NCBI GenBank assembly: GCA_045837725.1
Contig: JBEWZL010000013.1
Location: 558,001 to 622,000 of the forward strand
Direction: 5' to 3'
Origin: Vermamoeba vermiformis
Taxonomy: Eukaryota
DNA: 64,000 nt
The notes beneath the pieces are model-generated. The model searched no databases, was not told where the DNA came from, and saw nothing but the letters and a program-made list of their open reading frames with translations. Both the position numbers and the translations under genes were made by a program. Of this stretch, positions 282 to 46,750 are shown one piece after another (positions within the stretch are counted from its first letter, which is position 1; every line of letters starts with the position of its first letter).

Positions 282-3001
282 CTAGTTCTTGCGCAGGTAC
301 TTGGCGATCTCCTCCATCGTCTGAATGAGTGAGATTTTAATGTATGGGGCTTGCAATTATTAATTTGTGCAACATACCGGTCTATCAGCGGGGTCTCTCT
401 TCCAGCACATTTCCATCACTTCTCGAAGAACTGGATCGCAGTTGTCAGGGATCGCAGGATGGAATGCTTCATCTCGAATCTTCACTCCAACGAACAGTTG
501 GTCTTCATCAGCATGTGGTTCTTTGCCCGCAACAATCTCCCAAACTGATACAAGAGTGTCAGAGCTGTTGACTTTGATCGTGTGACACGTGTTGTTCTTA
601 CCTAAAATGCCATAAGACCACACATCTGATTTGACACTGTATGACTTGTCTTTCAAGCTCTCGGGGGACTACGGTTAAATGGTAAGTATGAGTACGAATA
701 GTTATTCTAGCACGCCGTACCATCCATCGCAAGGGACCAACATTCGTCTTCGTCTTTCCTCTTGCTTCTTCGTCTTGAATGATGCGAGACATGCCAAAGT
801 CGGACACTTTTGGCTGACCTTCTGTGCTAAGCTATATATTAAGGTTAGTAAGATCGATCAGGTTTTATGCTAACGTACCAAAATGTTTCGTGCAGCCAAA
901 TCACGATGCACGATGTTATTATTGTGGAGGTGGATCAGTCCATATGCAATCTTCAATGCAAACTCTTTCCTTTTAGCGTCTGTGACGGCGCTCGCATTGT
1001 CAAAGACAAGTTTATCAAGACTTCCACCACCGCAAAACTCGAGCACAATGCACGGATATGCACCGTCGAGACTGACACCGAATGTTTGGACCAAGTTCGG
1101 ATGAGGAGCAATGCCAAGTGTCAGTTTTGCTTCAGCAAGGAATCCTTCCATGTCAGTCACTGTGTTGTTCACTTTGATTGCGACTTCTGCTCCTCGCCAT
1201 TCACTGAAAATCGAGGGTTAAAAATGACGATAAATCAGGGCGGTTAGATCGTGCTTACCCCAAGAATACTTTGCCGTAGCTTCCAGCACCAATCTCTTTT
1301 GTGAAAACAAGACTCTTGTAAGGGATGTGCATTCGCTTATCAATCTCCGACGGGTTGATTCCAGTTGGATTGATCTCCGATGCTCCAATGTCAGAGGTCT
1401 CAGTGCCACCTTCAGGAATGCTGTTGTATTGGCCACTCGCTCGACTCATTGCCGGGACGGTCGCGTACGCTGACGGTGCAATGCCTGTAGCGCTAGAAGT
1501 CGTTGTCATCGCAACGGCATCATCGCCGTCCTCAACATCGTCACTTGACTTGTGTTCTTTCTTCTTGGCTTGTGCTTTCTTGCCAAAGTAGATGCCAAAA
1601 AAGAGCGCTGCTGCAACTCCGACAACAGGGATGACAATCGCTGGAACGAGCACTTCAGGACCTGGTGATTTGGGAGCGTTGACAATGGCGTCAGTTGGTG
1701 GGTCTACTGGAGGTGCAACGGGCGCGTCTACTGGTGGATTGATCGGTGTGTCTACGGGAGGGTCAATGGGGGCGTTGATTGGAGAATTGACCGGTGGAGC
1801 TATGGGCGCAGTAGGAGGGATAGCAGCTATTTACGAATATCATTAATACTTATTTACCCACCTACTTGTTAATGCATTCGTTTTACTTACTGCACGTGAC
1901 TCCATCGCCCTCAAAACCAGCGAGGCAGGTGCAATTAACTTGACCGCCGCCAAGGTACGTGCAACTCGCGTCTGCGGAGCAGCCTCCGTTGTTCGTTACA
2001 CAAGCTACGCGAAGAGTGAGTATGACCAAGGACTAGTTTCGCTTGTTATCTGCGCTACGTACGCTCTGTAATATTAGCGAACCATCCCTTAAGAGTTCTA
2101 ACCGAGTAAATCGCGCCTGTTGAAGCAGTCCAACCAAAGTAGTACTCGTTTGGCGTGACTGGCACGATCACTGAAGGACCTGACGTGAAGATGTTTTGCG
2201 CGCCGTCAATCTTTATCTGCAGAAAGCGTAAGTTCAAATTATTGCAAAATAATAGCTAGGTCTTATTATGGCTACTTACTGTCCAAGTAGTATCCGCGCC
2301 ATTAGGTGCGTAATCGATCCTCATCGTATGACTTCCGACGCCCGGATTCGTGAGAGATTTGTATGTACATTCTGCAGTAGCTAGATAAATAAACGGCAGT
2401 TCGGCGGTATTGTTACTAAACCATATATTAACAAATAAAGACCATTTCGACCGTACTTACACTTGGCAAAAATAAACACGGCTAAATACCATATCGATAC
2501 CGATTGCCACCATATTAGATAAGTAAACAATGTTCCAAGAGCCGCCATTTGTTTGCTGAGCGTTTAAAAATGAATTTTTATCGCCGGTGACCACGAAGCC
2601 GAACCTGCAACAAATGATTATTAACCGTTACAAAAAAATTAATTCTAATTTTTTGATAAGAAAATAATGTAATGAATAACGATAGGAAGAATATTATTAT
2701 TTTTAAATTAACGTTGCACTTACGCTTCTCCATAACCATTAAGCCCGGTGCCTGAAACGTCGTAATTGATCGTTATTGAGAAACCTAGTGAAACGTCTTG
2801 AGGAATAGTATATAGAACTCGCGACATTTGACCACTTTGGTCGGCGGTGAGCTGAATTTGGCCGGATCCTTGAACCGCATCTCCAATAATATTGTAATTT
2901 GCCGAGGTAAGAACAGTTTCATCAATATCCAGGCATTTGATAGAGGATATAAATATTAATCCTATCACCAAAATGGTGAAGAGGTGTGGCAGTCTTTTCA
3001 T
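282..3001 (-). CDS. Receptor tyrosine kinase: signal peptide, L-type (legume-like) lectin, EGF, Pro-rich stalk, TM, kinase (multi-exon)
   Basis: Signal peptide MKRLPHLFTILVIG; lectin-like IQLT...GFSITINY...YYFGWTASTG; EGF CTNNGGCSADASC...CTCLAGFEGDG; TM VLVPAIVIPVVGVAAALFFGIYF; kinase IGAGSYG, VAIK, HRDLAARN, DFG, GPLRWM, SDVWSYG. Last exon TMEEIAKYLRKN*. Confidence 0.9.
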
Positions 3002-3408: not shown

Positions 3409-6086
3409 CTAGTTCTTGCGCAAATGCTTGGCGATCTCCTCCATCGTCTGAATTGTAAGGTATTAAAACCAGTTGTTTGTAAGCAGGTTGTCAATAGCTA
3501 TTATTAACTATGTTTAGCATACCGGTCGCTCAGCAGGATCTTTCTTCCAGCACATTTCCATCACTTCTCGAAGAACTGGATCGCAGTTGTCAGGGATCGC
3601 AGGATGGAATGCTTCATCTCGAATCTTCACTCCAACGAACAGTTGGTCTTCATCAGCATGTGGTTCTTTGCCAGTGACAATTTCCCAAACTAACAAAATA
3701 AGGTCAGATCTGTTGAAATGGTACGTGTGACACGTGTTGCTTACTTAAAATACCATACGTCCATACATCTGATTTGACACTGTACGACTTGTCTTTCAAG
3801 CTCTCGGGGGCCTAAATAACAATTAATGTTTTGAACAGAGTTGACTAATTCTGGTTGTTCGTACCATCCATCGAACGGGACCAACATTCGTCTTCGTCTT
3901 TCCTCTTGCTTCTTCGTCTTGAATGACACGTGACATGCCAAAGTCTGATATCTTTGGTTGACCTTCTGTGCTCAGCTTTAAGGTGTCGTTAGCAAAGAAT
4001 CACTTTAGCAGTGAAAGCTCAAAACTACTTACCAAGATATTTCTCGCGGCCAAATCACGATGCACGATGTTATTGTTGTGGAGGTGAATCAGTCCATATG
4101 CAATCTTCAATGCGAACTCTTTTCGTTTTGCATCGGTGACAGTGCTTTCGGTGTTGGTAACCAATTTATCGAGACTTCCACCACCGCAAAACTCAAGCAC
4201 AATGCACGGATATGCACCGTCGAGACTGATTCCAAACGTCTGCACCAAGTTTGGATGAGGAGCAATGCCAAGTGTCAGTTTTGCTTCAGCAAGGAATCCT
4301 TCCATGTCAGTCACTGTGTTGTTCACTTTGATCGCGACTTCTGCTCCTCGCCATTCACTGAAAACCGAGCGTTAAGATCAATTGCAATCGAAGATAAGAA
4401 GCACGTTCATACCCCAAGAATACTTTGCCGTAGCTTCCAGCACCGATTTCCTTTGTGAAGACAAGACTCTTGTAAGGGATGTGCATTCGCTTGTCAATCT
4501 CCGACGGATTGATTCCAGTTGGATTGATCTCGGACACCGTTACAGCGATGTCAGACTTGTCACTTCGCACTGTCTCTATATTAGGAATGCTGTTGTATTG
4601 GCCATTAACTCCGCTCATCGAAGGCACAGTGCCGTAGTTGGATGGCGCGATGCCTGTTGCATTAGCAGTCGACGTCAATGCCATGGCTCCATCGCCATCC
4701 TCGAGGTCATCACTGTTCGCTTTGGTCTTCTTCTTGGCCTGTTTCTTCTTGCCGAAATAAACTCCGAGGAAAATGGCAACTGCAGCGCCTACTACTGGCA
4801 CTACAATGGCTGGCACGATAACTTCGATCTTAGGCCCTGGAGGGGTAGTGACTTGGCCCTGTGGTGTGTCTACTGGAACGCTAACAGGTGCGGCGACAGG
4901 TGGATCAATTGGCGTGTCAACGGGAGGAATAGGTACTGTGGTACATGATATTAATATGATTATACTAACATGAATAGGCTGCACTTACTGCATACGATTC
5001 CATCTCCTTCAAAGCCAGACAAACACGTGCATTTGACTTGACCGTTGCCAAGGTACGCGCATGATGCATCCGCGGAACATCCACCGTTGTTCGTACACGC
5101 TGCCAATGCGAGTGTTAGTAGATTTTGATTGGTTAATTCTTGCAAAGATTACGCACGTTCAGTGATATTAGCAAACCAACCAGTCAGTGTTTTGTTGGCG
5201 TAAGCGGTGCCACCATTCGCACCAACCCATGCGAAGTAGTATTCATTCTGAGTCGTAGGAACGAGAGGAAAAGTACCACCAGGATTAAACAATACTTGAG
5301 CACCGTTTACACTGACCTAAGGGACGTTGTTATTAAATTTGAAATTTGACTATTTTAATAATCTTACCGTCCAGACAGTATCGTTGCCCTTAGGCGAGTA
5401 GGAAACGACCATAGTATGACTTCCTGCGCCCGGAGTTGGATATGGACTGTTTGTACATTCAGGTGATGTCGCAGGGTCTGAAGGTAAATTCGTCGAAGGG
5501 TCGCTGTTAAAATAATTAATTAAATAAACATACGTTTTTTAAATTAAGTTCAAACTTACGCTTGGCAAAACACAATAGAACCGGTAACCATGTCCACAAC
5601 TATTGTCACCACATTACTTAGCGTAGCAATATTCAAGCCTTGTCCGGCTGATTGCATAGAATTTATAATTGAGTTTGTTTCGCCTCCAACTATGAAACCA
5701 AACCTAGGAAATTTAAATTTCGATTTATTACCGTCAATAAATCGAGATAAATTTTAATAATTATGCTTTGATAATAGATCTAATGAAATTACTAAAATCA
5801 ATTTTATATATTTTTACCCTTCGCCAAGTTCTGTCCCGGAAGAAGCAACGTCAAAATAGATCGTTACGGTGAAACCAGATGCAACATCAAATGGCACATC
5901 ATACAATGCTCGCCCTGCTGTGCTGGCAGTATCTGGAGTGAGCTGAATTGTATTTAAATCGGCGACCGCGTTATTAATGAGCGTGTAAGAGTTGAGCGTC
6001 AGAGTGGTTTGATCAATATCCACGCATTTAATTGTGGATAATCCCAGCACCAATATGGTGAGGAGGAACTGTTGCAATCCTCTCAT
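3409..6086 (-). CDS. Tandem paralogue lectin-EGF receptor tyrosine kinase (multi-exon)
   Basis: Same exon structure and motifs as 282-3001; kinase exons nearly identical in DNA, lectin exons clearly diverged; ends TMEEIAKHLRKN*. Confidence 0.9.
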
Positions 6087-10945: not shown

Positions 10946-13123
10946 ATGTACGGTCGATTTTGTCTTTTAGTATCGCTTGTGGTGTTGTTCCTGGTTGCTG
11001 TCAGAGCTGACCTGGATCAATCGTCCATAACTAATGGCTTGTATACGACCACTGGCACCGCGACTGACTCGGGTGGTTTTATTCAACTGACCCCTTCTTC
11101 AACGAATCAAGCTGGTGTTGCACTTTACTCAGCACAACAAACGATCGCAAACGGATTTTCTACAACTTTCAGTTACACGTCGTCTGGCTGTTCTACGCCA
11201 TCTGGTGCTGATGGGTATGTTACATGTAATTATCCTATTTTGACTCCAATTAATTAAATCAATTCTAGATTCACGTTTTTGGTTTCACCCCTTCTCTCGA
11301 TCACGGGCTCACTTGCAACAGGCAATAGTCTCGCAATCGCTGGTGCTGCTAACGTGGCGGTAGTTGCATTTGATCTGTACAACTCAGAACTTCGCGTTTG
11401 CTCAGCGTAAGCCAAAGAGCAAAACAAAATCAAAGCTGCAATGACTAAGATTTCCGCTTTTAGTAATTCAATCACCCCGCTTTCCTGGGCCTCCAGTTGC
11501 GCAGTTGGAAACATTACGGCTAGTCTTAAATGCAGTGGCGCTCATACGTTGAAAATTGGGTTTTCTGCTCCGAGCAGCTGGCAAGTCTGGATCGACGGCA
11601 TTTCACAAGGCAATTTTACCAAGGACTTGACGAATACATTGACGATGGTTAATGGCATGGCTTATGTCGGTTTCACTGGCTCGACAGGAACGTACTACAT
11701 GCGCCAGCGAGTCACTTCGTGGACCTTGACATCCGCTACAAGTACGCTCAATTAATTCAATGCCTTATAGATACTCATACTATTATAGATTGTTCTGTAA
11801 ACAACGGAGGATGCTCGCTTGATGCTACCTGTGCCGTTGTTAGTGGTTCGACTCAATGTACTTGCAACGACGGATTTACGGGCGATGGCTACACGTGCAG
11901 TAAGTATACAACAGTGTTATATGAACGGCTTTTCTAATGAGCTGCTATAGCTGTCACTTCTCCACCTGTCAATCCACCTGTTGACGTGCCGCTTGCAGCG
12001 CCTGTCGAGCCACCTGTTAGCCCACCTGTCGATGTGCCAGTAGCACAACCTCTCGCTGAACGGCAGCACCTGTTTATGTGGCGCCACCCGTTGACGTGCC
12101 TATCGCTCAACCAGTTTCGGCACCAATGGCAACGCCCGTCACTCCGCCCACTGCTGTACCAATCACACCACCTGTCAGCACTCCTATCAATACACCAGTT
12201 ACGCCGCCAGTCACGCTGCCTGTACCAGTGAGCCCTCCAGTCAGCACACCAACAGCGATGCCAGTGATCATTCCAATCCTCGAGTGTTTCGATGACTTGC
12301 AGAACGGCAGTTTCATCGCGTATTTTGGATACAACAACACCATGGGCGAACAAGTCTCTGTGCCAGTTGGCTCAATGAACACATTTGGCAGTCCTTCGTT
12401 CATTGGTCAACCCACTTCTTTCGAGGCTGGTAGATCTGGTAAGTGAAACTAAGTGCTCGTTTTGTATTTGCATTAGACTAACAATTTTTGTAAGATTTCT
12501 ATCCGCAAGCAGCATTCGCGTACTTGTGGGATGGCAAGACACTGACATGGACTTTGACTTCGTACAGACTGACACTTGACACCTCTGACACGAGCAGAAA
12601 GTGTCCTTCATTTGCACGCTTCACTCTAACGTTCTACACTGAACGACAGTTGACTGATCAAGAAATCAACGCGATCTCACTGGGACTATCTAACACTCTT
12701 GGAATTTCACCTGAGAGAGTGCGCGTGTTGAGCATCAAGTACACGCCTGTCACGCGCAAACGAGACTTGTCAGTGGCAGAGCTCGAGATGGAGATTGCAG
12801 CAGCAAACAGCACACAACAGAACGAACCAACTCCGTCACAAGCAGTTCAGACTATAGTTGAAGCAGCAAAGAACACCACCGCGTTGAACCAAGTGCTTGA
12901 TCCAAACGGCACTTTGAATCTGCAAGTCCTTGGAGTTAAATCTGCACCAACAGGTGTTGAACAATCAGGCAGTGCCAGCAACGCCACTCCTAGCAACGAG
13001 CCTACCACAAAGACTCCTCGTGGATTGTTGACGGGTCAACTCGAATCTGGAGCCGACTCCCAAACTGAATACATAATGTTGCTGATTTCGTTTGCAGTTA
13101 TAACCTTTTTGGTAAGCGTGTAA
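10946..13123 (+). CDS. Kinase-less L-type lectin-EGF-Pro-rich surface protein with C-terminal hydrophobic anchor (apparent frameshift near 12061)
   Basis: Signal peptide; lectin motifs GFSTTF, GADGFTFLV, VAVVAFD, AYVGFTGSTG, VTSW; EGF CSVNNGGCSLDATC...CTCNDGFTGDG; PPV repeats; PILECF...YFGY domain; terminal hydrophobic stretch. Confidence 0.8.
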
Positions 13124-13378: not shown

Positions 13379-15902
13379 ATGCAAGGCTCATTAAATCTTT
13401 TAATACTGTTAATTGCCTTGTTGGCTTCGGTTGTGACTGCCGACATCTCACAAACGACGATCACATCCGGTTACAATACATACGGCAATGGTTTAGTAGG
13501 ATCCGGTTATATTCAAATCACTCCTTCGCAATCACAAACTGCCGGTATTGTATTATATTCGACTCAGCAAACGGTTGGCTACGGATTTACCACGGAATTC
13601 ACTTACACAAGCACTGGTTGCTCTGGAGGTGGTGGGGACGGGTATGTTTACTTTCATAGTATTATATTACAAGTCATAGTAAAATAATACTGATTTGTTT
13701 TTTTTTATCAGTTTCAATTTCATCGTTTCTCCATCTACCTCTTTTTCGACCCTACAAAAAGGTGGAAGTATGGCCGTAGAAGGTCAAACAAACATTGCCG
13801 TTGTAGCTTATGATGGATATAAGAGCCAGCTGAGAATTTGCTCAGTGTAAGCGTTTCAAACGACATCTGTCATGATAATCTCCCGTTGGCGTGATTGAAA
13901 TTAATAATCATTTCCGCTTATGACTAATTTATCATGACTACAGGCCATCGGGTACATCATTATCATATAGTAGCAATTGTGTTTCGTCAAGTTTGGCCGC
14001 GATCAGATGCACCGGATCTTCGCATACCTTTAAAATTATCTACACGCCCAACTCCGCTTGGCAGGTAATATAATTAATACTCGATAACAATATGACTAAT
14101 AAATACTAGTTATGGGTTGACGGCACTTCTCAATCCCTTACTGGCCCGCAAGGTTTAACTGGCACGTTGACTTTGAACGCCAACTCTCAAGCTTATGTTG
14201 GCTTTGCTGGAGCTACTGGCGATGCATATATGGATCAACGAATCATTAGCTGGACGTTCACTTCAACGCCAAGTAAGTTTTTTTGTGGTTTCATGCCGGA
14301 TCCCTTCAGTTCATTTTCTGGTATTGCGACGTAAATTAGCAATTTTTATTAAGAATTGTAATCTCGCGTGGGAATAGTACTAATTTTTCCTAACTTTACC
14401 TTATTTGATTCAGCCTGTGCACTGAACAACGGCGGATGTGACACGAATGCAAACTGCTCAATCGTGGCCGGTTCAATCTCTTGCACGTGCAATAACGGCT
14501 ATACTGGCGATGGCTATACATGCTGTAAGTGCTCGAATATCTGGGATGACATGCAAGAATGACACCTGTCACTTGTAATTACCCGAGAGTCAATCCTGTC
14601 TACATGCTAACGCTCGTTCAGCCATTCCTCCCGTAGATCCGCCCGTCACTCCAATTACCACAGTTACCTTTTTTGCACCGCCAGTCGACCCTCCCGTATA
14701 CGTTGCACCACCTGTGGATCCGCCATCTACTTGCCCCTTTGTCTATGTGGCACCACCTGTGGATCCGCCCGTCTATGTTGCACCTCCTGTCGACGTGCCA
14801 GTCTCTATCCCGCCAGTAGATCCACCAGTCGTACCACCTGTTGCCGTGCCTGTCTCAGTACCAGTCTCAGTCCCTGTCGCCGTGCCAATCTCGGTGCCTG
14901 TTTCAGTGCCACCAATTAGTACTCCGATCGCTGTCAATCCCCCAATCGCAGTGCCGCCAGTCATGTCACCGGTCACTACTCCACCCGTACCTGTTCTAAC
15001 TCCCGTCAATGCACCTATGTCATTCGAAGTGCCAGTAGCGATGCCAGTGGTCATTCCAATCCTCGAGTGTTTCGATGACTTGCAGAACGGCAGTTTCATC
15101 GCGTACTTTGGATACAACAACACCATGGGCGAACAAGTCTCTGTGCCAGTTGGTTCAATGAACACATTTGGCAGTCCTTCGTTCCTGGGCCAGCCAACCA
15201 CATTCCAAGCTGGTCGTTCGAGTAAGTCCGGATCTGATTTTGTATTTGACAAGTTGTTCTAATTAGTATACATTAGATTTCTATCCTGATGTGGCATTTG
15301 CGTACCTTTGGAACGGCAGAACGTTGATTTGGACTTTGACTTCGTACAGATTGACACTTGACACCTCTGACACGAGCAGAAAGTGTCCTTCGTTTGCTCG
15401 CTTCTCATTGACATTTTACACGGAACGAGAGCTGACTGATCAAGAAGTCAACACTCTCGTGGAGAATCTTGCAAATAATCTTGGAATTTCAGTGGACAGA
15501 ATCATTGTGAAGAGCATCAAGTACACGCCTGTCACGCCTTCGAAAAAACGAGACTTGTCAGTGGCAGAGCTCGAGATGGAGATTGCTGCAGCAAACAGCA
15601 CACAACAGAACGAACCAACTCCGTCACAAGCAGTGCAAACATTAGTCGAAACATCGAAGAACACCACTGAACTGAATCAAGTGCTTGATCCAAACGGTAC
15701 TTCGGATCTGCAGTTCTTGGGCTTGAAAACTGAGCCAACAGGTGTTGAGCAGTCAGGCAATGCTGTGCCTCAAGCAGCTAAAGGAGATTCGCCCAGGTCA
15801 TTGTTGGGCAGTACTGCCAGCGTTCGCGTCGCTGCCTTGGATGTGACGCTGTTGTGGTGTTGCCTCGTAATTTTGTCTTTGCTTCATATTACCGTTAGGT
15901 AA
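13379..15902 (+). CDS. Tandem paralogue lectin-EGF-Pro-rich anchored surface protein
   Basis: Same architecture: [43 protein letters not shown] repeats, PILECF domain almost identical in DNA to the first copy, hydrophobic C-terminus. Confidence 0.85.
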
Positions 15903-16429
15903 ACTGATGCGCATGTAAAATAAAATTTAGTCTTCTCAAGAACGAACAGCTTAGCATTTCTAAAAACGGACTGGATGCCGCTAGCTTAATGTGTGATGCA
16001 ATCCTAAAGCAGTGCACGCAATGTTTTACCCGATCTATTCAACCAAAATCCCTTATCCCAACCCACATGAAACCCCGTTTTATTATTTTATAGTTTTGGA
16101 AGGAATCCACACGAAGTGGATCCGCAAAAATTTGACAACCTTCGTTGTCAGACCAGACGCACGGTTGAAAATAGTAAAAGGCGATTTTCAAATTCGCTCT
16201 GCGTTTGGCCTCGAAGTGGATGAAAGGAACAGAGCGCTGAAATTGTTTTTTTATGGCAACTGAGAGCGATTTTGTTTGTGGGACCTGCCATTGCCACGTC
16301 TGACTTTTTCCCCGCCAAATATTAATTTAAATTCCTAATGTACAGATGTACAAAATACGCCCTTATGCGCAGCAGTATATGAAGTCTGGATCTTGCCTCG
16401 TTTATTAACAAAAAAAATTGCTCAGCAAA

Positions 16430-19262
16430 CTATTTTCTTCTGTTTCTTTTCTTTCGCATTTCTTTTTCGCTGAGATTGCCTTGCTTTTCTCTGTAATTTA
16501 AATAAGAAAATTAGCACCGTAGTTCATTTTTCAAACTTTCAAACCCAGATCGAGATCCGATCGAGTCAGGTACTACTTACATCCGTTGCTGTTTGGTTTT
16601 ATCATGCTTCTTCAGCTTCTTCTGACGTTCATCGCTTCTGCCACTCCTAATCTCGTCTATATCGAGCATATGATCCTCCATGGCAAGCACTGCTGGCGCC
16701 GGATCGATAGCCAGATGATCCAACGAGCTCGCAAGATTTTTCTCGCGGCAGAGCTTACAAAGACACTCGTTAATTTCTCTGGCGTCCTGGCCATTAAAGT
16801 AGATATATTCAGGACCCTTGAGCTTGTGTCTGAGACTAATTACGTGGTGATAATAAATTCCGTTGGATCCTCTAATATCAATCACGTCCACCTTGTTGAA
16901 TCTTCTAATAATGTCCATAAAGTGAGGGTTATCAAATCCATACGTAAAAGTAACCATCTTTAGCGTTGGAAGTTCGCAGATCTCGTCCAAAAATAAAAAT
17001 TCGAACGCACCAACGGATCCGTTCAAGCTGAAGTATTCCAAATTAGGCATATTGGCTAATCCTACTGTCTTGTCATCAACTGCTGGGAATACACTTTGAA
17101 CGCTGAATTCCAAATGCCTCAAATTCTTCAACTTGACGATCTCCAAAAAGATGCTGTTGGCTGCTGTTTGAGTTTCTATTTTTAGCTTTACCAAATTAGT
17201 AAAGTCGCTCAATTTGGAAAATCTTCCCATAGTTCCGATATTCAAATTGAGTTCAGTGAGTGTGGCCATATTGAGTTGATCCAAAGTGTCGGGCAGATGT
17301 GGCACATCCGTTATTGTCAGGGACTGGAGATTAGGCCATACTTTGAAATTGAAATTATTATCAATTAGGCTTAGCGTTACTGCCTTCATCTGCGTCAGAT
17401 CTGATAGCCACGTGTACGATCCAGAGTTCGGGATGGACCTGTGTGCTGTTTCATAGTCTCTAAACCGTAAAGTTGCAAATGACGTCAATTTTGGCAAATT
17501 TTTCGCGTCAAAAAGCGTCAAATCATCGCTGATAACACCGCCCAAGTGTTCCAAACGCGTCAAGCTGGATAAATGCTGGGGTGATATTTCACTAGGCAAT
17601 CTATAATATAGATAATATTAATGTTAGTCTTAATAATCGATGGTTAAATTAGGTTTGAAAGAGGTCCTATTATAACGAAAGAAAAAACGGATTTGGATCC
17701 AAATTTTTTTTTTGCCTGCGACTGATTTACAAATGACGTATTCATTAAAGATCAAATAATATATTATCAATGCATATGATGGACTTACTCTAGGCGCTTC
17801 AGATTGGTCAGATGCGTTACATCGAGAAAACTAAACGGCAAGACAGAAATATTCTCTTGAAATGAGAGTGATTCCAATCCTGCAAATGAGTCTTGGTGCA
17901 GCCAAGTTTTAGGCAGGGAGGACCTCATGAAAACCTCCCATTCGACTTTAATAGTCTTCAACGATGCTACAAAAAAATAAATTAATTAAAATCTGTCTTA
18001 ACCGCCATAATTTAGCGGATAATGCATTATTACAAATAAGTTAATATTTTTCTAAGAAATTATTAGATGAATTATTCTTTAAATCTTACGAGGATATTCA
18101 TGGCCAATGAGTCTATTCAAAACACAAATGTCCGCAACGAGTGTTTGAAGCTTCGGGAAGCATTTCAAGTTATTAGGCGTGGTATTATAGACGAATAAGG
18201 TGTTCAAATTGCTGAATTTGTCGAATAACGGAGACCATTTGTTGCGAACTTCTAAGTAGCTACATCCAAAAAAAATTTAGTTTTTGACGTATAAAATAAG
18301 CACTCTAAGTATTAATATATTACCTAGTATGTTTTATGATCGCTCTTTTCCATTTCTTATTAACTTTCATTGGCGTAGTGTTGAAATGCCTCGATCCAGT
18401 GAACGAGCACATTAACGCAATAATTTCCTGTTCAAAAATTAAGATCAGCACTTAAAAAAGCATTAAATATATAATAGCAACGCTATACTGTAATTATAAG
18501 GAATGATAAGCTTGTGCGAGAAAATTTTTCTACCTCGGGCATGGAGGCCAAAGGACCCTCAACACAATCGATACCAAAGTGCCCAAGTTTGTCGCAATGA
18601 TAGCACTTCTTGACGGCGGGGAGCGCTTTGTTTGGCGCGAATTGGACGGTCATTCGTTTGCCTTGGTATCGCGTGCCATTGATGGACATTAGCGTCTTCG
18701 TAGCGACGTGTTTTTGCTCGTAAAAGACATAAACATAGCCTACATGATAATCGATTGGAAATTATGTAATAAATGACTATATTATAACGTGGTGACGTAC
18801 CTGATTTTTCGCAGTCGATGTGCGTGACGGCTCCAAAATTGGATGCTATCGGCAAAAATTGAGTCTTTTCAACGAATAAGGGAAGACCACCTACAATACA
18901 ATAATTAGATAAACTTAACCACATCGGCAATTACTTACTAAATTCTAAGCAATAGTAGCTCTGTTCCTCGTCATCACTCGAATCGTCATCAGATTCGTTA
19001 TTATTTCGAGTTTTCTGAATATTTTGGATTAAATACTGTATATTTAGATAGTAAATATTTATGGGTACCTTATTTTGAGTATCTTCGAGAATATCAAAAA
19101 TATTGTGGCTCTGAAAACCGCCGCCTCCTAGTGAAATATTACAATAAGACCAATAATAATAAATTTTAATTAATAAAAAGCCATAATAATGGTTGTGCTT
19201 ATTTATACAAGTGCTGCATAATAAATTTCAGACTAATCGCGAGATTACCTACCTTTTCTCAT
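16430..19262 (-). CDS. RRM, CCHC zinc knuckle, F-box, LRR protein with basic tail (multi-exon)
   Basis: Spliced translation: CLEFSGLP (RNP2-like), SGYVYVFY (RNP1-like), MSINGTRYQGKRMTVQFA; CYHCDKLGHFGIDC; LASMPEEIIALMCSF...VNKKWKRAI; LxxLxxLxL repeats; last exon EKEMRKKRNRRK*. Confidence 0.75.
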
Positions 19263-19483
19263 TTTGTCCGATCAAGAAATTTATTCGACAAAGCTGATCG
19301 TAGTCAGTACTGAATATTATATGATATTGTGGTCCACAATTGATGCATTAATGTTTTTTTTGCTCTAGTCGTTGCGCGGCATAAAAATTTTCACGTGTGC
19401 TCTTTTTTTCAATTTTCGTTCCGTTGGAAGACAAGCTCAACAAATAATTTAAATATTATTGTTGTATATTAGAGTCTGTATAT

Positions 19484-22058
19484 ATGATATCTATAAGATC
19501 ATTAGCGGTTGTCCTTTTTTTGACCGCTTTTTTGGTGGATGCCAATCAGACCCCTGCTTTAGAAGCTGGATTATGGTAGGAATCGATTCAATTAAATAAT
19601 TAATATATTTTAAGTAATTTATTTCGCATTTTAATCGAGCTAAATCTTAATTAACGGAATAAGAAGCATTTACTTTTGATTTTCTTGTTTATTGAAAAGA
19701 TATTATTTTATAGGCCGCTCCCCAAGTCCTTCTCTTTTGGCTCTGATACTGTATACTTGAACCCTGATAAATTTGAAATTCGCATGTCATTCCACAGCGA
19801 TTTAGTAACGGATGTGATCGGTCGATTTCATAACAGATTATTTTCTGGTGCAGCTGTAAGTATATATGATTATAGTTTATACATTTATTAATATGATATT
19901 TAGGTACCTTCTATTCAAATTCAATACCCTCCACCTCCCGTTTGGAACAATCAGAACGGAACCGGATCTGTAAACGCAGAAACTTCACCTTTCTTAGGAG
20001 GAATTCAAATGAAATGGGATTCGGATAGCGAAGATCTTAAATTAGGCGTCGATGAGAGCTATACATTGACAGTACCAAACGGTAAATACTAGCTCCAATT
20101 TTTTTTTTGTGGATTGAGATCTCGTTTGGTAGATCTGAGACACTAACGCTAATTTAATTACAGAAAATGGAGCATTCATCCAGCTCAATGCTAATAATAT
20201 TTTTGGTATTATGCGTGGTTTGGAAACAGTTTTGCAATTAGCTTTTGTCGAAGGTTTTGAAGAAGGCCACACAAATTTGGACGGCATTGCTCCATCTGCA
20301 AATTTCCTATCGATAAAAAATACACCAATCAGCATCGAGGACGCACCGAGATTTCCTTGGCGAGGAATGTTGATCGATACCGCTCGTCATTATTTCTCGA
20401 TTGAAAAATTGAAGCAGATCATAGATGCGTTGTCGTGGAACAAAATGAACGTTTTTCATTGGCACATTGTTGACGCGGAGGTACGTCCCGATAAGTTCTT
20501 ATTACCATATAAGGCAATGTCAGCTAAATTTAGCATCGTAGACTTTTCCTCTCGAATTAAAGTCCCGGCCTGAACTCGTTGAAAACAGTCGCTGGACCAT
20601 GGCCTCGACGTACTCGCAGCGTCAAATCAAAGAACTGACGCAGTACGCGTTGTACCGTGGTGTGCGCATCGTGGCTGAAATTGACACGCCGGGTCATACT
20701 TATTCTTGGGGCCGAGCCTTCCCGAACATTATTGCTAATTGCAGCAAATATATTTCATCGCGATCGATTACTTACCCGCAAATTAACTCCGTAAGTAACC
20801 AATGGAATTTTAAATTTTTTTTATGTTGCTGATCCGTTGGATCGAGCAGATCCCGCTCGACTTGACAAAGGACGAGACTTACGCAGTCCTTAAAGACGTA
20901 TTGCAAGAGACAGCTGCTCTGTTCAAGGACGATTTTATTCATTTAGGGTAAGCGTATAATACTATAGTTATGAGTTTTATTAACGTAAACTGCGCAGTGG
21001 TGACGAGCTGATCACAAAATGTTACGATGAGTTCCCCGAAATTAGACAGTGGATGCGTGATCATCACATGAATGACACTACTTACGTCGAATTGATTCGT
21101 TATTACCAAGAAAAAGTCATCCAGTACGTGCAAGAAAAGAACAAAAAGTTCGTTGTGTGGCAAGAAGCTTGGGAACATTTTGAAGGACTGCCGACGAATC
21201 CGTTCCCCGCAAACGGCGGTACGTAGTCAGACTGCCGGCTATAATAACAATATCGTATTAATATTATATGTAGGTACTATGGTGCAAGTATGGAAGGGCG
21301 AGAACGGACCGGTCGTGCAAAATCAATTGGAACAAATTTTGACCTCTGGTTACGCAGCTTTATTATCTTCGGGTTATTATTTGGACGTTCAGATCCCTAA
21401 TGTTAACCAAACGTGGTATCTTGCTCTTGGTACGGTCTGATCAAATTTTTAATCGAGGTTCTAATCTTATCCTGCAGATGTGTGGAAGAATTTCTATCTT
21501 AACGAGCCTCTGAGCGACGATTTGATGAATAAGTTGTCACCTGATCAACTATCGCAATTTAAGGGTGCTGAAGTATGGTGAGTATTATCCGGCTCTCATG
21601 ACGAAAATTATTGAAATTAATCGCATCCGCAGCCAATGGGGCGAACAAGTTGAAGAATGGAGTATTGATAAGATGTGGGCACCTGCGTTAGCAGCTTTTG
21701 AGCGATACTGGTAAGCCATATTATACTTTACTAGTGGGTAATATGGCTCACGTGGCATTTTTTTAGGTCTCCAAGATCCGTCAACGATCCGAACCAGGCG
21801 TACCCAAGATTGATCCGACAACGGTGCAGAATGTTACAACGAGGTTTAAATATTCAACCGCTTCGTCCAGATCACTGCTCAGTCTTTAGAAACCCGAAAA
21901 CGGAAGATACAATTAAGGGCTCATTCCCGACTTGGCTGATCGTGCTTGAAGTCATAATTTTTGCTGTAGTTTTGGCTGGTATGATTGCTGTGATCGTTAT
22001 TTATTATAAGAAGATTAGAGAAGTCAACGACACTCATTTTTCAGCTGTAATTGATTAA
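19484..22058 (+). CDS. Beta-N-acetylhexosaminidase (GH20) with C-terminal transmembrane helix
   Basis: Signal peptide then LWPLPK; GVDESYTL; IEDAPRFPWRGMLIDTARHY; NVFHWHIVD; EIDTPGH; spliced HLGGDE catalytic motif; TM WLIVLEVIIFAVVLAGMIAVIVIYY. Confidence 0.92.
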
Positions 22059-29704: not shown

Positions 29705-31553
29705 TTAATGCGTGATATAAGAGTGAAAAATAGTATTTACAACCGTTTCAAAGTTTGCTCCAGGGTGTGTGACATGCGATAAGATCTTGATCCAAAGTTC
29801 GCGCGGAAGCGTCGCCAGCGCTTGATGACTTCGTGCAATGTTGTGGGACAGAATGGCAACTTTGAATTGTGCTTCTGACTTGAGCTGTCTGTTACGCGTT
29901 AAAATTGGCTCGAAAGGACTTGATTCGAACGCAATCTGATCCAGCACATAATTATGTTCCAATTCTGTCATCAACTTGATACGCAATGCATCTTGTGTTA
30001 AAAACTCGTATTGATTAATAGAAATGTTGTTAATCGTCGTATTATATTTCAATCCTTCGCAAAATAATTCGATGCAATTGGCAGACTCCGGATCGCAATA
30101 AATTTCCATTTTTCTCAAAGTCGTGTTGCGAACCAGCATTTTTTTGACACCTGTCATTCCATCGACACCAAATTTCATGTCACCAATGTTAAGCTCGTGC
30201 AGCGAGGTGTTTTTGAGTAATGCGTCACAAATGTATTTCACACCTTCGTCTTGAAATGTGTTTGACATCAAATGAAGACTTCTAAGCACTGTATTATGTA
30301 CCAACAAATCAGCAATAAATTTGCACTGCTCGTCATTCACTCCTGCTCTCGTAAGGTCCAACGCGGTCAAACTTTTGTGATTTTTCAATGCCGTGCACAA
30401 TGGCTGGATTCCAACCAATCCACTATTGTTCGTAGTAGCCAGTAGTTTAAGCGTTGAATTGTGAGCTAAACCATCGCTAAATAGTTGATACTTTGCGTCA
30501 TCAAGTTCGCAAAAATGTAGCTCCAGTGCGGTCAAGCAGGTGTTCGTTTTCAACGACTCGCCAAACGCTCGAGCGCTATTCTCAGAAAATTGCGCTTTGT
30601 TGATATTAAGTTCTGATATTCTAATCTGATTATGACCTAGCGCCTCGCCAATCAGATCTGATTCCTTTGGACCGAGATGATGCAAACTAAGTTTTTCCAA
30701 TGTTGTATTGATTTTTAATCCTGCCACTAATTTTTCCATTTCTTTTGATGTTGCTGAGCTAAGCGGCGAGTAACTTAAAGTGAGATCCAAGATAGATCTA
30801 TTTGTTCCAAGAATTTCGCCGAGTTCTTGATAGCCATTAGGACCATATCCCCACAGCTCCAATACTTTCATTGACTTATGTGCTGATAATACGGGTACTA
30901 CTGGAGTCCAAAATTCCGCAGGCATGTGCTCGCCGAAAATTGTAAGGTGGATCAAGGATTCGTTTTTCAAAGCACATGCTAACGGCTCGCATTCTTCTGG
31001 TTGTATATCAAAAAATATTGTGATTTTTTGGAGGAGTTTTGTATATTGACACGCGCGCAAAACATCGTTGATATTCGCGTTTGGAGCTTTTCTGATCGAT
31101 AGTTGCCGGATGGAGCCTGATCCAACAGCTGCAGCAAATTCAGCCATATTTGATTGACTAAGCCCGCTTCCAAACTCTACTAAAGCAGTAACTAAGCATG
31201 GATGATCTCTAATAACGCTTGATAAGAAGCGCAGATCCTGCTCGCTCTTCAGGTGCCAACCAAGGAAGCTATTCAATAACAACGCATCGTGTATTAAGTG
31301 CCATTTATCCTCAGGAATATTGGTGACATTAAACATTTGGGCGTTTCTTGCCAGTTTGAAGGGTGCATTGCGTTTGAGGGCATCTTCGATCCGTTTAAAT
31401 TCAGGGAGCTAAGTTATAAAGTCAATAATTATTATAAAATACATACATATTCAATTCCTATTTGTCAATATAATTATAAATAGAAAAACGCAATTCAATA
31501 AATTTAGAAGTTTAGATCGATTTTGAACCAACCGGCGTTACCTTACTCTCCAT
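29705..31553 (-). CDS. RI-like (NLRC3-type) LRR protein with C-terminal F-box-like motif
   Basis: About 28-aa repeats LKxNTTLxxLxL; C-terminus LATLPRELWIKILSHV; two tiny 5' exons inferred. Confidence 0.85.
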
Positions 31554-45500: not shown

Positions 45501-46750
45501 GTCAAGTCTATATGGACGGTGCTAACATGAACGCTCAAGTCGGTTTGACCAAGCCTGGTAAGTTCGGATCTGGATGTCGTGCCACGGTCTGGTACTAATG
45601 CTTTGTAATTTCAGGCGATCTTGGCGCTGATGTCTGCCACTTGAACTTGCACAAGACCTTCTGCATTCCTCACGGAGGAGGTGGTCCTGGCATGGGTCCC
45701 ATCTGCGTTGCCAAACAGTAAGTAGAAACCAAAGCTAGAATGTTTTGCTTTTCGTTGCGGTTGGATGTTGTCGTTGCTGAGTGGGTCCAGAGGGCGAGGA
45801 AATCGCAAATCAACGTGGCACAGATGGTCGAGTGGTTCAAGACGTTAGTTTCAGGTACTAATCCAGGCAACTGGGCGTGGGTTCGAATCCCACTCTGTGC
45901 ACCATTTTTTTTGCCTTTTTCCTGCCCTGCTTCGCTCGTTTGCCTTTCTGTCTGCCCTTCCTAGTTCCCTCTCAAACAACGACAACACAACGCTACTAAT
46001 AGAGCTCAATTTTCTTTTGGTAGATCCGTTCCGTAGACTAACTTTTTTGTCAGTTTGACTCCTTTCTTGCCTGGTCACCCTGTCGTTAAGACCGGTGGTG
46101 CTACTGGTGCCGTCAGTGCTGGTCCTTGGGGTAGCAGCAGCATCTTGCCCATCGTCTGGGTCTACATTAATTTGATGGGCTCCGCTGGTCTCAAGAAGGC
46201 TACTCAAGTCGCCATTCTGAACGCTAACTACATGGCTTCGAGACTCGAGAAGCACTACAAGATTATGTACAGAGGTCAAAACGGCATGGTTGCCCACGAG
46301 TTCATTCTCGACGTCAAGCCCTTCAAGAAGGTCGGCATTGAAGCCGAAGACTTTGCCAAGCGTTTGATGGACTTTGGCTTCCACGCTCCCACCATGTCTT
46401 GGCCCGTCGTTGGCTCATTGATGATTGAGCCCACTGAATCTGAAAGCAAGGAAGAGCTCGATCGATACGTCGATGCTTTGATCTGCATCCGCGAAGAAGT
46501 TCGTGCCATCGAAGAAGGCAAGATGGATCCCAAGAACAACCCCTTGAAGAACGCTCCTCACACTATGGATATGGTCATGAACAGCAGCTGGGACAAGCCT
46601 TACTCGCGCGAACAAGCTGCCTTCCCCTTGCCCTTCGTTAAGGCCAACAAGTTCTGGCCCTCTGTCGGTCGTGTCGACAACACTTACGGCGATCGTAACT
46701 TGATCTGCACTTGCCCCTCTATGTCTGATTTTGAAGAGCCCAAGAACTGA
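42523..46750 (+). CDS. GLDC: Glycine dehydrogenase (decarboxylating), glycine cleavage P protein, mitochondrial
   Basis: [92 protein letters not shown]. Confidence 0.97.
45818..45901 (+). tRNA. tRNA-Leu(CAG), nested in GLDC intron 45718-46053
   Basis: Acceptor GCACAGA/TCTGTGC, D arm GTC/GAC, anticodon arm TTAGT-TTCAGGT-ACTAA, long variable arm CCAG-GCAA-CTGG, T arm GTGGG-TTCGAAT-CCCAC, discriminator A. Confidence 0.93.
45905..45913 (+). terminator. RNA polymerase III oligo-T terminator of the tRNA
   Basis: Run of T immediately after the tRNA and CCA. Confidence 0.75.

What the first reader, a model, noticed from the sequence alone, without database searches (positions are those of the whole stretch)
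16430..19262. RRM plus CCHC zinc knuckle fused to F-box-LRR: candidate RNA-binding SCF adaptor
Seen: phase-consistent splicing gives an acidic patch, an RRM, CX2CX4HX4C, then directly an F-box-like motif (LASMPEEIIALMCSF...VNKKWKRAI), a long LRR and a very basic tail. The knuckle and the F-box start share one exon, so the fusion is not a splicing guess. Known: RRM plus knuckle is the RNA-binding module of SRSF7/9G8 and ZCRB1; F-box-LRR proteins recruit substrates to SCF ligases. I know of no described protein combining them. Inference: a ubiquitin-ligase adaptor targeted to RNA or RNPs (splicing, ribosome or viral RNA surveillance).
Basis: partly seen in the sequence, partly recalled or inferred. 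Interest (0 to 1): 0.72.

Follow-up and report, generated by a model that had tools for sequence, protein, structure and literature searches.

The report
RRM–knuckle protein fused to LRR
This is a real, expressed gene of an unidentified microbial eukaryote that joins an RNA-binding-type module (a divergent RRM plus a zinc knuckle) to a long leucine-rich-repeat domain through an F-box-like linker, so it may couple RNA recognition to protein ubiquitination, but the F-box itself is not yet proven.

Summary
My final model has 10 exons, all GT..AG, and encodes 657 aa. Spliced RNA contigs from two studies confirm 7 of 9 introns, including the junction that joins the knuckle/F-box-start exon to the next exon. 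The other 2 introns are supported by transcript-derived proteins of relatives. It is one transcript, not two genes.

Domain calls differ in strength:
- **CCHC knuckle:** exact pattern, a hair under Pfam's cut-off, identical in a relative.
- **LRR:** solid.
- **RRM:** divergent. Pfam RRM_1 is the best family but sub-threshold (E 0.053). All 36 of 36 weak PDB hits are RRM proteins, several full-length and in register.
- **F-box:** motif-level only. There is no Pfam or PDB support, and my strict consensus pattern failed. The whole domain spans a splice junction, so it could not be given to the family or fold tools.

The family is very narrow: 3 fragmentary relatives among 1.84 billion proteins. 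It is under purifying selection (dN/dS 0.15). Six literature searches found no description of this architecture. The SCF-adaptor reading is plausible (about 0.4) but unproven. A U5 snRNA gene lies directly downstream, and this is conserved in a relative.

The parts
19253..19262 (-). Exon 1: start codon ATG plus 7 bases. The 5' UTR reaches at least 19335.
   Evidence: model; joint 19126|19252 in X2, and record 11 extends to 19335. Relatives P0011 and P0012 start with the same Met-Arg-Lys-Gly.
19069..19127 (-). Exon 2a: N-terminal region.
   Evidence: joints 19126|19252 and 19014|19069 in X2..
18939..19014 (-). Exon 2b: acidic patch (Asp/Glu/Ser-rich) and the start of the RRM beta-1 (RNP2-like 'CLEFSG').
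   Evidence: the 54-nt intron 19068..19015 is spliced in X2. N-terminal 49 aa have pI 4.24; this stretch aligns to the RNP2 of Tra2-beta.
18801..18890 (-). Exon 3: first half of the RRM-like domain.
   Evidence: joint 18738|18800 in X1 and X2. P0012 and P0010 read contiguously across the exon 3-4 boundary. The intron before this exon (18938..18891, 48 nt) is read through in X2 record 10 but spliced in P0012.
18534..18739 (-). Exon 4: RNP1-like 'GYVYVFY', the second half of the RRM-like domain, the CCHC knuckle (18564..18605), and the start of the F-box-like motif ('LASMPE', from 18551).
   Evidence: one stop-free ORF; zf-CCHC 20.4 bits against a cut-off of 20.8. Air2 knuckle E 0.0027. P0010 is 85% identical over this exon.
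18324..18427 (-). Exon 5: the rest of the F-box-like segment (ending '...VNKKWKRAI...').
   Evidence: joint 18426|18533 in X2 and in 4 raw RNA reads of X23; joint 18259|18324 in 2 contigs of X1. No Pfam hit and no PDB F-box hit. The post hoc two-block signature matched in 4 of 50000 shuffles.
18090..18259 (-). Exon 6: first leucine-rich repeats.
   Evidence: joints 18259|18324 and 17966|18090 in X1. LxxLx[LIVF] segments.
17789..17966 (-). Exon 7: leucine-rich repeats.
   Evidence: joints 17966|18090 (X1) and 17600|17789 (X1, X2).
16581..17600 (-). Exon 8: main LRR solenoid (to about 16817), a Cys-x-Cys-x2-Cys patch, a conserved acidic motif (16661..16705), and the start of the basic tail (from 16648).
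   Evidence: LRR_14 E 2.8e-10, 39.9 bits against a cut-off of 40. AF2 LRR core blocks at pLDDT about 80-93, C-terminal third below 50; 46 Foldseek PDB matches at E<=0.001, and every row listed is an LRR protein; relatives P0001 (58%) and L001 (70%); dN/dS 0.15.
16430..16490 (-). Exon 9/10 (last): Lys/Arg-rich tail and the TAG stop at 16430..16432. It follows a 90-nt intron (16580..16491).
   Evidence: There is no RNA coverage in this species. The spliced tail is present in the relative's protein P0003. In L001 the GT..AG boundaries and the tail are conserved while the intron interior has diverged with indels.

Best explanation
One expressed 10-exon gene encodes a 657-aa protein. In order it has an acidic N-terminus, a divergent RRM, a canonical CCHC zinc knuckle 8-9 residues later, a roughly 40-residue F-box-like segment, about 14 leucine-rich repeats, a conserved acidic C-terminal motif and a Lys/Arg-rich tail.

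The most likely function is an RNA- or RNP-associated substrate receptor of an SCF (Skp1-Cul1-F-box) ubiquitin ligase:
- The RRM plus knuckle dock the protein on an RNA.
- The F-box-like helices recruit Skp1.
- The LRR solenoid holds the protein that is to be ubiquitinated.
- The basic tail probably acts as a nuclear localisation signal or an extra RNA contact.

Shown: the gene structure, a single spliced transcript, the domain order, conservation under purifying selection, and a very narrow distribution.

Inferred: RNA binding, Skp1 binding, any ubiquitination, and nuclear location.
For: **Single transcript.** Junction-spanning contigs from two studies confirm 7 of 9 introns. They link exons 2b/3-4-5 (X2 record 10), 5-6, 6-7 and 7-8. 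Four raw RNA reads of a diverged homologue show the same exon 4-5 joint.

**Relatives.**
- P0012 reads from the start Met through the acidic patch, RRM, knuckle and 'ASMPE'.
- P0003 carries the spliced tail.
- L001 conserves the terminal intron boundaries and the tail.
- dN/dS is 0.15.

**Knuckle.** The C-x2-C-x4-H-x4-C pattern is exact. Pfam zf-CCHC scores 20.4 bits (window) and 19.8/20.7 bits (relatives) against a cut-off of 20.8. The best PDB hit is the Air2 knuckle at E 0.0027. The motif is identical in the window and in P0012.

**RRM.**
- Pfam RRM_1 is the top family on the 76-aa stretch (E 0.053, profile positions 5-69 of 70).
- All 36 of 36 PDB phmmer hits at E<=10 are RRM proteins. Tra2-beta and U2AF65 align over the full length with RNP2 and RNP1 in register.
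- The nearest Atlas clusters carry RRM_1, but at a score of 0.82, which is a lead only.

**LRR.**. SKP2 (rank 24) and COI1 (rank 44, highest query TM-score at 0.42) are among the structural matches.

**F-box-like segment.** It sits directly N-terminal to the LRR, as in FBXL proteins. It has the two signature blocks (hydrophobic-Pro-x-Glu-Ile-Ile, and later Val-x-Lys-x-Trp). The post hoc two-block pattern matched in 4 of 50000 shuffles.

**Precedent.** An F-box protein that binds mRNA and Skp1 is known: T. brucei CFB2 (PMC8051951, passages read).
Against: **F-box.**
- Pfam finds no F-box or F-box-like family at E<=10 on the exon-4 or exon-5 translations.
- PDB phmmer with the 34-aa exon-5 piece returns only a chance hit to ribosomal protein L33.
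- My strict consensus pattern, written before looking closely, did not match. One expected hydrophobic position is displaced, and there is a one-residue insertion before the Val-x-Lys-x-Trp block.
- The two-block pattern was written after seeing the sequence.

**RRM.**
- It is below Pfam's gathering score (13.8 bits against 20.7).
- It was not reported at all on the whole of P0012 at E<=1.
- No single PDB hit is better than E 0.013.
- By the alignment, the RNP2-like stretch has Glu at the second position, where I recall the RNP2 consensus as aromatic.
- AF2 on P0012 failed (pLDDT 28.8), so the fold is untested.

**LRR.** The structural matches are generic. Internalin A ranks first.

**Caution from print.** S. 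pombe Pof8 was called a putative F-box protein and is a La/RRM protein. Its F-box could not be confirmed by profile searches (PMC5805746, passages read).

**Intron retention.** In this species the only contig across the 48-nt intron retains it. So at least some mRNAs would not encode the acidic N-terminus fused to the rest.
Confidence: 0.4

Rival explanations
1. An RNA-binding LRR scaffold with no SCF function. The RRM and knuckle bind RNA, and the LRR recruits a protein partner to that RNA or RNP. The 'F-box-like' segment is merely a helical linker or N-terminal cap of the LRR solenoid. The combination of an RRM-type domain and an LRR is known from mRNA export factor NXF1/TAP and from the U2A'/U2B'' pair (recalled, not tested here).
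For: No profile or PDB support for an F-box, and the strict pattern failed. The RRM, knuckle and LRR each have some independent support. The Pof8 precedent shows a mis-called F-box in an RRM protein.
Against: The Pro-x-Glu-Ile-Ile and Val-x-Lys-x-Trp blocks occur at the spacing and position typical of FBXL proteins, directly before the LRR. The post hoc two-block pattern matched in 4 of 50000 shuffles. The F-box could not be tested as a whole because it spans an intron.
Confidence: 0.3
2. An ordinary F-box/LRR substrate receptor whose N-terminal RRM-like and knuckle module no longer binds RNA. Instead it serves as a protein-protein docking or regulatory domain, as UHM-type RRMs do.
For: The RRM is divergent (Pfam 13.8 bits). 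The RNP2-like stretch lacks an aromatic residue at the position where I recall the consensus having one (alignment).
Against: The RNP1-like octamer keeps both aromatic positions. A canonical knuckle follows directly and is fully conserved. The RRM-knuckle exon is 85% identical in a relative. The tail is strongly basic (pI 11.35).
Confidence: 0.15
3. An artefact: two neighbouring genes or a read-through joined by a splicing guess, or a decaying chimeric pseudogene.
For: The 48-nt intron is retained, with an in-frame stop, in the one contig of this species that spans it. Relatives' proteins P0010 and P0012 run into intron 4 instead of splicing it.
Against: - All other junctions are seen spliced, including exon 4-5 in X2 and in raw reads.
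- The complete ORF is open.
- Relatives conserve both ends.
- dN/dS is 0.15.
- There is no second copy in the window.
Confidence: 0.04

Closest known systems
FBXL-type F-box/LRR substrate receptors of SCF ligases (Skp2, COI1/TIR1). The nearest architectural analogue is KDM2A/B (FBXL11/10), with a nucleic-acid-binding zinc finger upstream of F-box-LRR (recalled).
   Same: A roughly 40-residue F-box-like segment sits directly before a long LRR solenoid. SKP2 and COI1 are among the structural matches of the LRR. A nucleic-acid-binding-type module lies N-terminal to the F-box position, as in KDM2 (recalled).
   Different: The F-box is not recognised by Pfam or PDB sequence searches. The LRR matches internalin, SDS22 and SHOC2-type repeats at least as well. 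The upstream module is RNA-type (RRM plus CCHC), not a DNA-binding CXXC. There is no detectable sequence homology to any named FBXL.
RRM plus CCHC-knuckle RNA-binding modules: SRSF7/9G8, ZCRB1 (U11/U12-31K), RBM4/Lark.
   Same: An RRM is followed within a few residues by a single C-x2-C-x4-H-x4-C knuckle. The RBM4B RRM (2dgt_A) is among the weak PDB hits.
   Different: There is no RS domain. The RRM is divergent, and similarity to these proteins is not significant. No ZCRB1 or SRSF7 structure is among the 36 hits. The module is fused to about 500 further residues that these proteins lack. The spacing comparisons are recalled, not tested.
RNA-binding E3 ligases and F-box RNA binders: RING-type MEX3, Roquin and CNOT4 (recalled); T. 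brucei CFB2 (PMC8051951).
   Same: They share the concept of RNA binding and ubiquitin-ligase recruitment in one polypeptide. CFB2 binds mRNA and Skp1 through its F-box (passages read).
   Different: The known cases are RING proteins, or an F-box protein (CFB2) without a canonical RNA-binding domain. Here canonical-type RNA-binding domains would sit on an F-box/LRR receptor.
S. pombe Pof8 ('putative F-box protein', LARP7-like La/RRM telomerase subunit; PMC5805746).
   Same: It is an RRM-containing protein with a reported F-box.
   Different: The Pof8 F-box could not be confirmed by profile searches. Pof8 has a La motif and no LRR. It is a warning rather than a relative.

Membership tests
RRM (Pfam PF00076 RRM_1) | Profile match at or above Pfam's gathering score. 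| tested here: not met
   On the 76-aa stretch of P0012, RRM_1 is the best family but scores E 0.053 and 13.8 bits against a cut-off of 20.7, covering profile positions 5-69 of 70. It is not reported on the whole of P0012 at E<=1. It is not reported on the window's exon pieces, where the domain is split by an intron.
RRM (Pfam PF00076 RRM_1) | RNP1 octamer and RNP2 hexamer in register, about 30 residues apart, within a domain of about 75-90 aa. | tested here: met
   All 36 of 36 PDB phmmer hits are RRM proteins. The Tra2-beta and U2AF65 RRMs align over query residues 4/5-73/74, with the RNP2-like and RNP1-like stretches opposite theirs. The RNP1-like stretch keeps its aromatic residues. The RNP2-like stretch has Glu where I recall the consensus as aromatic.
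RRM (Pfam PF00076 RRM_1) | Beta-alpha-beta-beta-alpha-beta fold. | tested here: inconclusive
   AF2 on P0012 with a 6-row alignment gave mean pLDDT 28.8 and no usable model. The Atlas feature search points to RRM_1 clusters at 0.82, below the level that counts.
CCHC zinc knuckle (Pfam PF00098) | C-x2-C-x4-H-x4-C spacing with an aromatic residue after the first Cys and Gly-His. | tested here: met
   Read directly from the sequence. Identical in the window and in relative P0012. The best PDB hits are Air2 and retroviral nucleocapsid knuckles, best E 0.0027.
CCHC zinc knuckle (Pfam PF00098) | Profile match at or above the gathering score. | tested here: not met
   20.4 bits (window exon), and 19.8 and 20.7 bits (P0012, P0010), against a cut-off of 20.8. 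The misses are 0.1-1.0 bit.
F-box (Pfam PF00646 / PF12937) | Profile match over the roughly 45-residue three-helix domain. | tested here: inconclusive
   No family at E<=10 on the exon-4 and exon-5 translations taken separately. No F-box chain in the PDB search with the 34-aa exon-5 piece. The strict consensus pattern did not match. The post hoc two-block pattern matched in 4 of 50000 shuffles. The domain spans intron 4, so the whole domain could not be given to the family tools.
F-box (Pfam PF00646 / PF12937) | Binding to Skp1. | not testable with these tools
   No Skp1 of this organism is available (no genome is held), and the spliced protein cannot be handed to the complex predictor.
Leucine-rich repeat solenoid | Tandem LxxLxL repeats forming a curved beta/alpha solenoid. 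| tested here: met
   LRR_14 E 2.8e-10, 39.9 bits against a cut-off of 40. The AF2 model shows regularly spaced strands, with core 10-residue blocks at pLDDT about 80-93. Foldseek gives 46 PDB matches at E<=0.001, and all rows listed are LRR proteins by title.
FBXL subfamily (F-box immediately followed by LRR) | A confirmed F-box adjacent to the LRR. | tested here: inconclusive
   Adjacency is met: the F-box-like segment is aa 142-181 and the LRR starts at about aa 182. The F-box itself is unconfirmed, as above.
SR protein SRSF7 / ZCRB1 orthology | Significant sequence similarity, plus an RS domain (SRSF7) or the ZCRB1 C-terminal region. | tested here: not met
   Neither protein is among the PDB hits. 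No Arg-Ser repeat region is visible in the model printed; the tail is Lys/Arg-rich (19 K+R of 42 residues).

The most novel reading that the evidence does not exclude
This would be the first F-box/LRR substrate receptor that carries canonical-type RNA-binding domains. It would be an RNA-addressed SCF ligase adaptor: the RRM-knuckle reads a specific RNA, possibly a spliceosomal or other nuclear RNP given the conserved neighbouring U5 snRNA gene and the NLS-like tail. The LRR would then present a protein of the same RNP for ubiquitination. The retained small introns, one carrying a stop, would give SR-protein-like autoregulation.
Probability: 0.25. Interest if true: 0.7.

Novelty: new variant of a known kind. 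Interest (0 to 1): 0.45.

Why it matters
The RNA-binding ubiquitin ligases I can recall are almost all RING proteins. The one F-box protein I found in print that binds mRNA, T. brucei CFB2, has no recognisable RNA-binding domain.

A receptor that joins an RRM and a zinc knuckle to F-box-LRR would show that cullin-RING ligases can also be addressed to RNPs through classical RNA-binding modules. It would offer a compact natural model for RNA-dependent substrate selection.

If the F-box proves false, this remains a lineage-restricted RNA-binding LRR scaffold of moderate interest. It would also be one more warning, after Pof8, against motif-level F-box calls.

Tried and rejected
1. **Hand-counted exon coordinates** were off by a base or two. 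The model was out of frame, and Pfam rejected the reference. The model was still out of frame. One search gave the correct coordinates, after which Pfam rejected one mis-phased reference and accepted the corrected one.

2. **No whole genome is held** for this window. So there was no paralogue or Skp1 search beyond the window. A tblastn of the model against the window found no second copy.

3. **Full-length relatives.**
   - The word-index search for longer proteins found none with the LRR exon or the knuckle exon.
   - The exhaustive HMMER search found 9 proteins at E<=0.001 among 1.84 billion. Three are true relatives and all are fragments. The other six have E 1e-6 to 8e-4 and 29-32% identity. 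I read two of the six (P0005, P0006), and both are generic LRR proteins.

4. **Related loci.** The second scan returned one locus, L001, which holds only the 3' end of the gene at a contig edge.

5. **PDB search with the retained-intron reading of exon 3** gave 3 unrelated weak hits and no RRM.

6. **AF2 of P0012 failed** (pLDDT 28.8). No fold search was made on it.

7. **Atlas on the LRR exon** gave only generic LRR clusters.

8. **The raw-read runs X21 and X23**, laid, mostly hold a diverged homologue (90-95% alike; 0.86-0.91 of what was laid runs on unlike). They say little about this locus beyond the exon 4-5 joint.

9. **Earlier findings of this scan:** nothing for this place, sequence or words.

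10. **No complex prediction with Skp1** was sent. No Skp1 sequence of this organism is in hand, and the F-box spans an intron.

11. **Organism.** I considered and dropped an insect origin. The neighbouring genes are kinases with proline-rich repeats, RNI-like LRR proteins and ankyrin proteins, and relatives appear only in environmental and Logan data. That points to an unannotated microbial eukaryote, possibly fungus-like, but the organism was not identified.
Full report
**1. Is the observation there?**

The feature lies on the minus strand. A stop-to-stop ORF list and a scripted model give a phase-consistent chain of exons. It runs from the ATG at 19262 to the TAG at 16430, with GT..AG at every junction and short introns of 48-188 nt.

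- an Asp/Glu/Ser-rich patch
- RNP-type motifs
- an exact C-x2-C-x4-H-x4-C knuckle
- 'LASMPE' six residues after the knuckle, in the same stop-free exon (ORF 18483..18761)
- the continuation ending '...VNKKWKRAI' in the next exon
- a long leucine-rich region
- a Lys/Arg-rich end

**2. Transcript evidence**

I laid two runs of assembled contigs (X1, X2, from different studies) and two raw RNA runs on 16100..19600. The X1 and X2 contigs skip introns with CT..AC ends on the + strand. That is GT..AG on the gene's strand, so they come from spliced RNA.

| Intron | Length | Evidence in this species |
|---|---|---|
| 19252..19128 | 125 nt | spliced in X2 |
| 19068..19015 | 54 nt | spliced in X2; new, in frame, inside what I had taken for one exon |
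| 18938..18891 | 48 nt | read through by X2 record 10 (see below) |
| 18800..18740 | 61 nt | spliced in X1 and X2 |
| 18533..18428 | 106 nt | spliced in X2, and in 4 raw reads of X23 from a diverged homologue |
| 18323..18260 | 64 nt | spliced in 2 contigs of X1 |
| 18089..17967 | 123 nt | spliced in X1 |
| 17788..17601 | 188 nt | spliced in X1 and X2 |
| 16580..16491 | 90 nt | no coverage |

That is 7 of the 9 introns of the final model. X2 record 10 alone runs from the acidic patch through the RRM exons and the knuckle exon into the exon that completes the F-box-like motif.

Two introns are not confirmed in this species.
- The 48-nt intron 18938..18891 is read through by X2 record 10. That puts an in-frame TAA at 18933..18931, followed by an ATG at 18924.
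- The terminal intron 16580..16491 has no coverage.

The final model has 10 exons and 657 aa.

**3. Relatives**

An exhaustive HMMER search with the 346-aa LRR exon found 9 proteins at E<=0.001 among 1.84 billion. Only three are true relatives, and all are fragments: P0001 (58% identical), P0002 and P0003.
- P0003 ends with the spliced form of the basic tail.
- P0001 ends at the unspliced stop.

A metagenome contig, L001, holds the last 198 codons at 70-71% identity. It keeps the GT..AG of the terminal intron, while the interior has diverged with indels. It encodes an almost identical tail. Over 197 codons, dN/dS is 0.15, with dS 1.29 and so near saturation.

A search with the knuckle exon found one cluster. 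Its members are informative.
- **P0012 (175 aa)** starts with the same Met-Arg-Lys-Gly. It runs through the acidic patch and has the exon 2-3 junction spliced exactly as modelled. It continues through the RRM, an identical knuckle and 'ASMPE', and then runs into intron 4.
- **P0011** retains the 48-nt intron.

So both unconfirmed introns are supported by relatives. Retention of the small introns is seen in both species.

The scripted model matches P0012 over residues 1-147 and P0003 over residues 562-657.

No full-length relative exists in the collections searched. No second copy lies in the window.

**4. Domain by domain**

*Knuckle.* The pattern is exact and conserved. Pfam scores are 19.8-20.7 bits against a cut-off of 20.8. 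The best PDB hits are Air2 and nucleocapsid knuckles (best E 0.0027). I accept it.

*LRR.* I accept it as well, but it is generic.
- LRR_14 scores E 2.8e-10, at the cut-off.
- The AF2 solenoid has a confident core (10-residue blocks at pLDDT about 80-93), and the C-terminal third is below 50.
- Foldseek gives 46 PDB matches at E<=0.001. Internalin A is first, SKP2 is at rank 24 and COI1 at rank 44.

*RRM.* I call it a divergent RRM.
- It is split by an intron in the window, so I tested it on P0012.
- Pfam reports nothing on the whole protein at E<=1.
- On the 76-aa stretch alone, RRM_1 is the top family, but at E 0.053 and 13.8 bits against 20.7.
- A PDB phmmer search of that stretch returns 36 hits at E<=10, and all 36 are RRM proteins. 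Several (Tra2-beta, U2AF65) align over the full length, with RNP2 and RNP1 opposite the query's 'CLEFSGL' and 'GYAYAFYE'.
- The Atlas points the same way, but below its meaningful score.
- AF2 failed.

*F-box.* This is the weak link.
- The two exon pieces give no Pfam family.
- The exon-5 piece finds no F-box chain in the PDB.
- A strict consensus pattern that I wrote beforehand does not match.
- A looser two-block pattern matches in only 4 of 50000 shuffles and nowhere else in the window's six frames. However, I wrote it after seeing the sequence.
- The position, directly before the LRR, is what FBXL proteins show.
- The domain spans intron 4, so it could not be submitted whole.

I put the chance that it is a true Skp1-binding F-box at roughly 0.6.

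**5. Surroundings**

- A U5 spliceosomal RNA gene lies at 16103..16217 on the same strand, about 210 nt past the stop. The same arrangement is present in L001. This may be plain synteny between close relatives.
- Upstream, on the other strand, starts a gene that looks like a family-20 hexosaminidase. That is my reading, not tested.
- Other neighbours are ordinary eukaryotic genes.
- No genome is held, and the organism was not identified.

**6. Mechanism and comparison**

The best reading is an RNA- or RNP-associated SCF substrate receptor (0.4). Its main rival is an RNA-binding LRR scaffold whose 'F-box' is only a linker (0.3).

The closest known kinds are:
- FBXL receptors, with KDM2A/B as the nucleic-acid-binding analogue (recalled)
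- the RRM-knuckle modules of SRSF7, ZCRB1 and RBM4 (recalled; RBM4B is a weak hit)
- RNA-binding E3 ligases and T. brucei CFB2 (PMC8051951, passages read)
- as a caution, Pof8, whose reported F-box could not be confirmed (PMC5805746, passages read)

The literature searches turned up no protein combining an RRM or knuckle with F-box-LRR. The papers holding all the terms are gene lists, judged from their titles and abstracts in the search listings only. An InterPro architecture query could not be run, so the architecture may still be catalogued.

**7. Verdict**

This is a real, expressed, constrained and lineage-restricted gene with an unusual domain order. The fusion is proven. The ubiquitin-ligase link is not. 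I rate it a new variant of a known kind, of moderate interest.

Noticed in passing
window 16103..16217 (-); L001 916..1030 (+): A U5 spliceosomal snRNA gene (RF00020, 68.9 bits) sits about 210 nt downstream of the gene's stop codon on the same strand. The same adjacency is present in the relative's contig.
   Followed up: partly
window 19015..19068, 18891..18938, 18428..18533 (-): Three small introns of this gene appear retained in assembled transcripts. The 48-nt intron, which carries an in-frame stop, is retained in this species (X2) and in relative P0011. The in-frame 54-nt intron is retained in P0011 and P0012. Intron 4 is retained in P0010 and P0012. This may be regulated intron retention or merely incomplete splicing.
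   Followed up: partly
window 45818..45904 (+): A tRNA-Leu(CAG) gene lies between two ORF pieces of a glycine-cleavage P-protein gene. Piece 44444..45598 has a Pfam GDC-P hit. Piece 46037..46750 was not scanned; its assignment is my reading of the ORF. The tRNA is probably inside an intron of that gene.
   Followed up: no
window 29705..31408 (-) and 57565..58260 (-): Two RNI-like LRR ORFs end with nearly the same C-terminal stretch, including an F-box-like 'LPRELWIKILSHVTHP' motif at the C-terminal end rather than the N-terminal end. Pfam reports LRR_6 on the first and nothing on the second. This looks like a local gene family.
   Followed up: no
window 12494..13123 (+) and 15267..15902 (+); 1255..1830 (-) and 4355..4984 (-): There are two pairs of tandem paralogues. 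One pair is a secreted or membrane-type ORF with no Pfam family. The other pair is proline-rich-repeat, single-pass membrane ORFs that run into what looks like a kinase glycine loop (my reading).
   Followed up: no
window about 19486..21500 (+): The divergently transcribed upstream neighbour looks like a family-20 beta-hexosaminidase with a signal peptide. This is my reading of the ORFs and was not scanned against Pfam.
   Followed up: no
window 16334..16567, 17153..17503, 18323..18673: Raw RNA reads of runs X21 and X23 lie here at only 90-95% likeness and run on into unlike sequence. So an expressed, diverged homologue (a paralogue, or a different strain or species under the same label) exists and shares the exon 4-5 splice junction.
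   Followed up: partly
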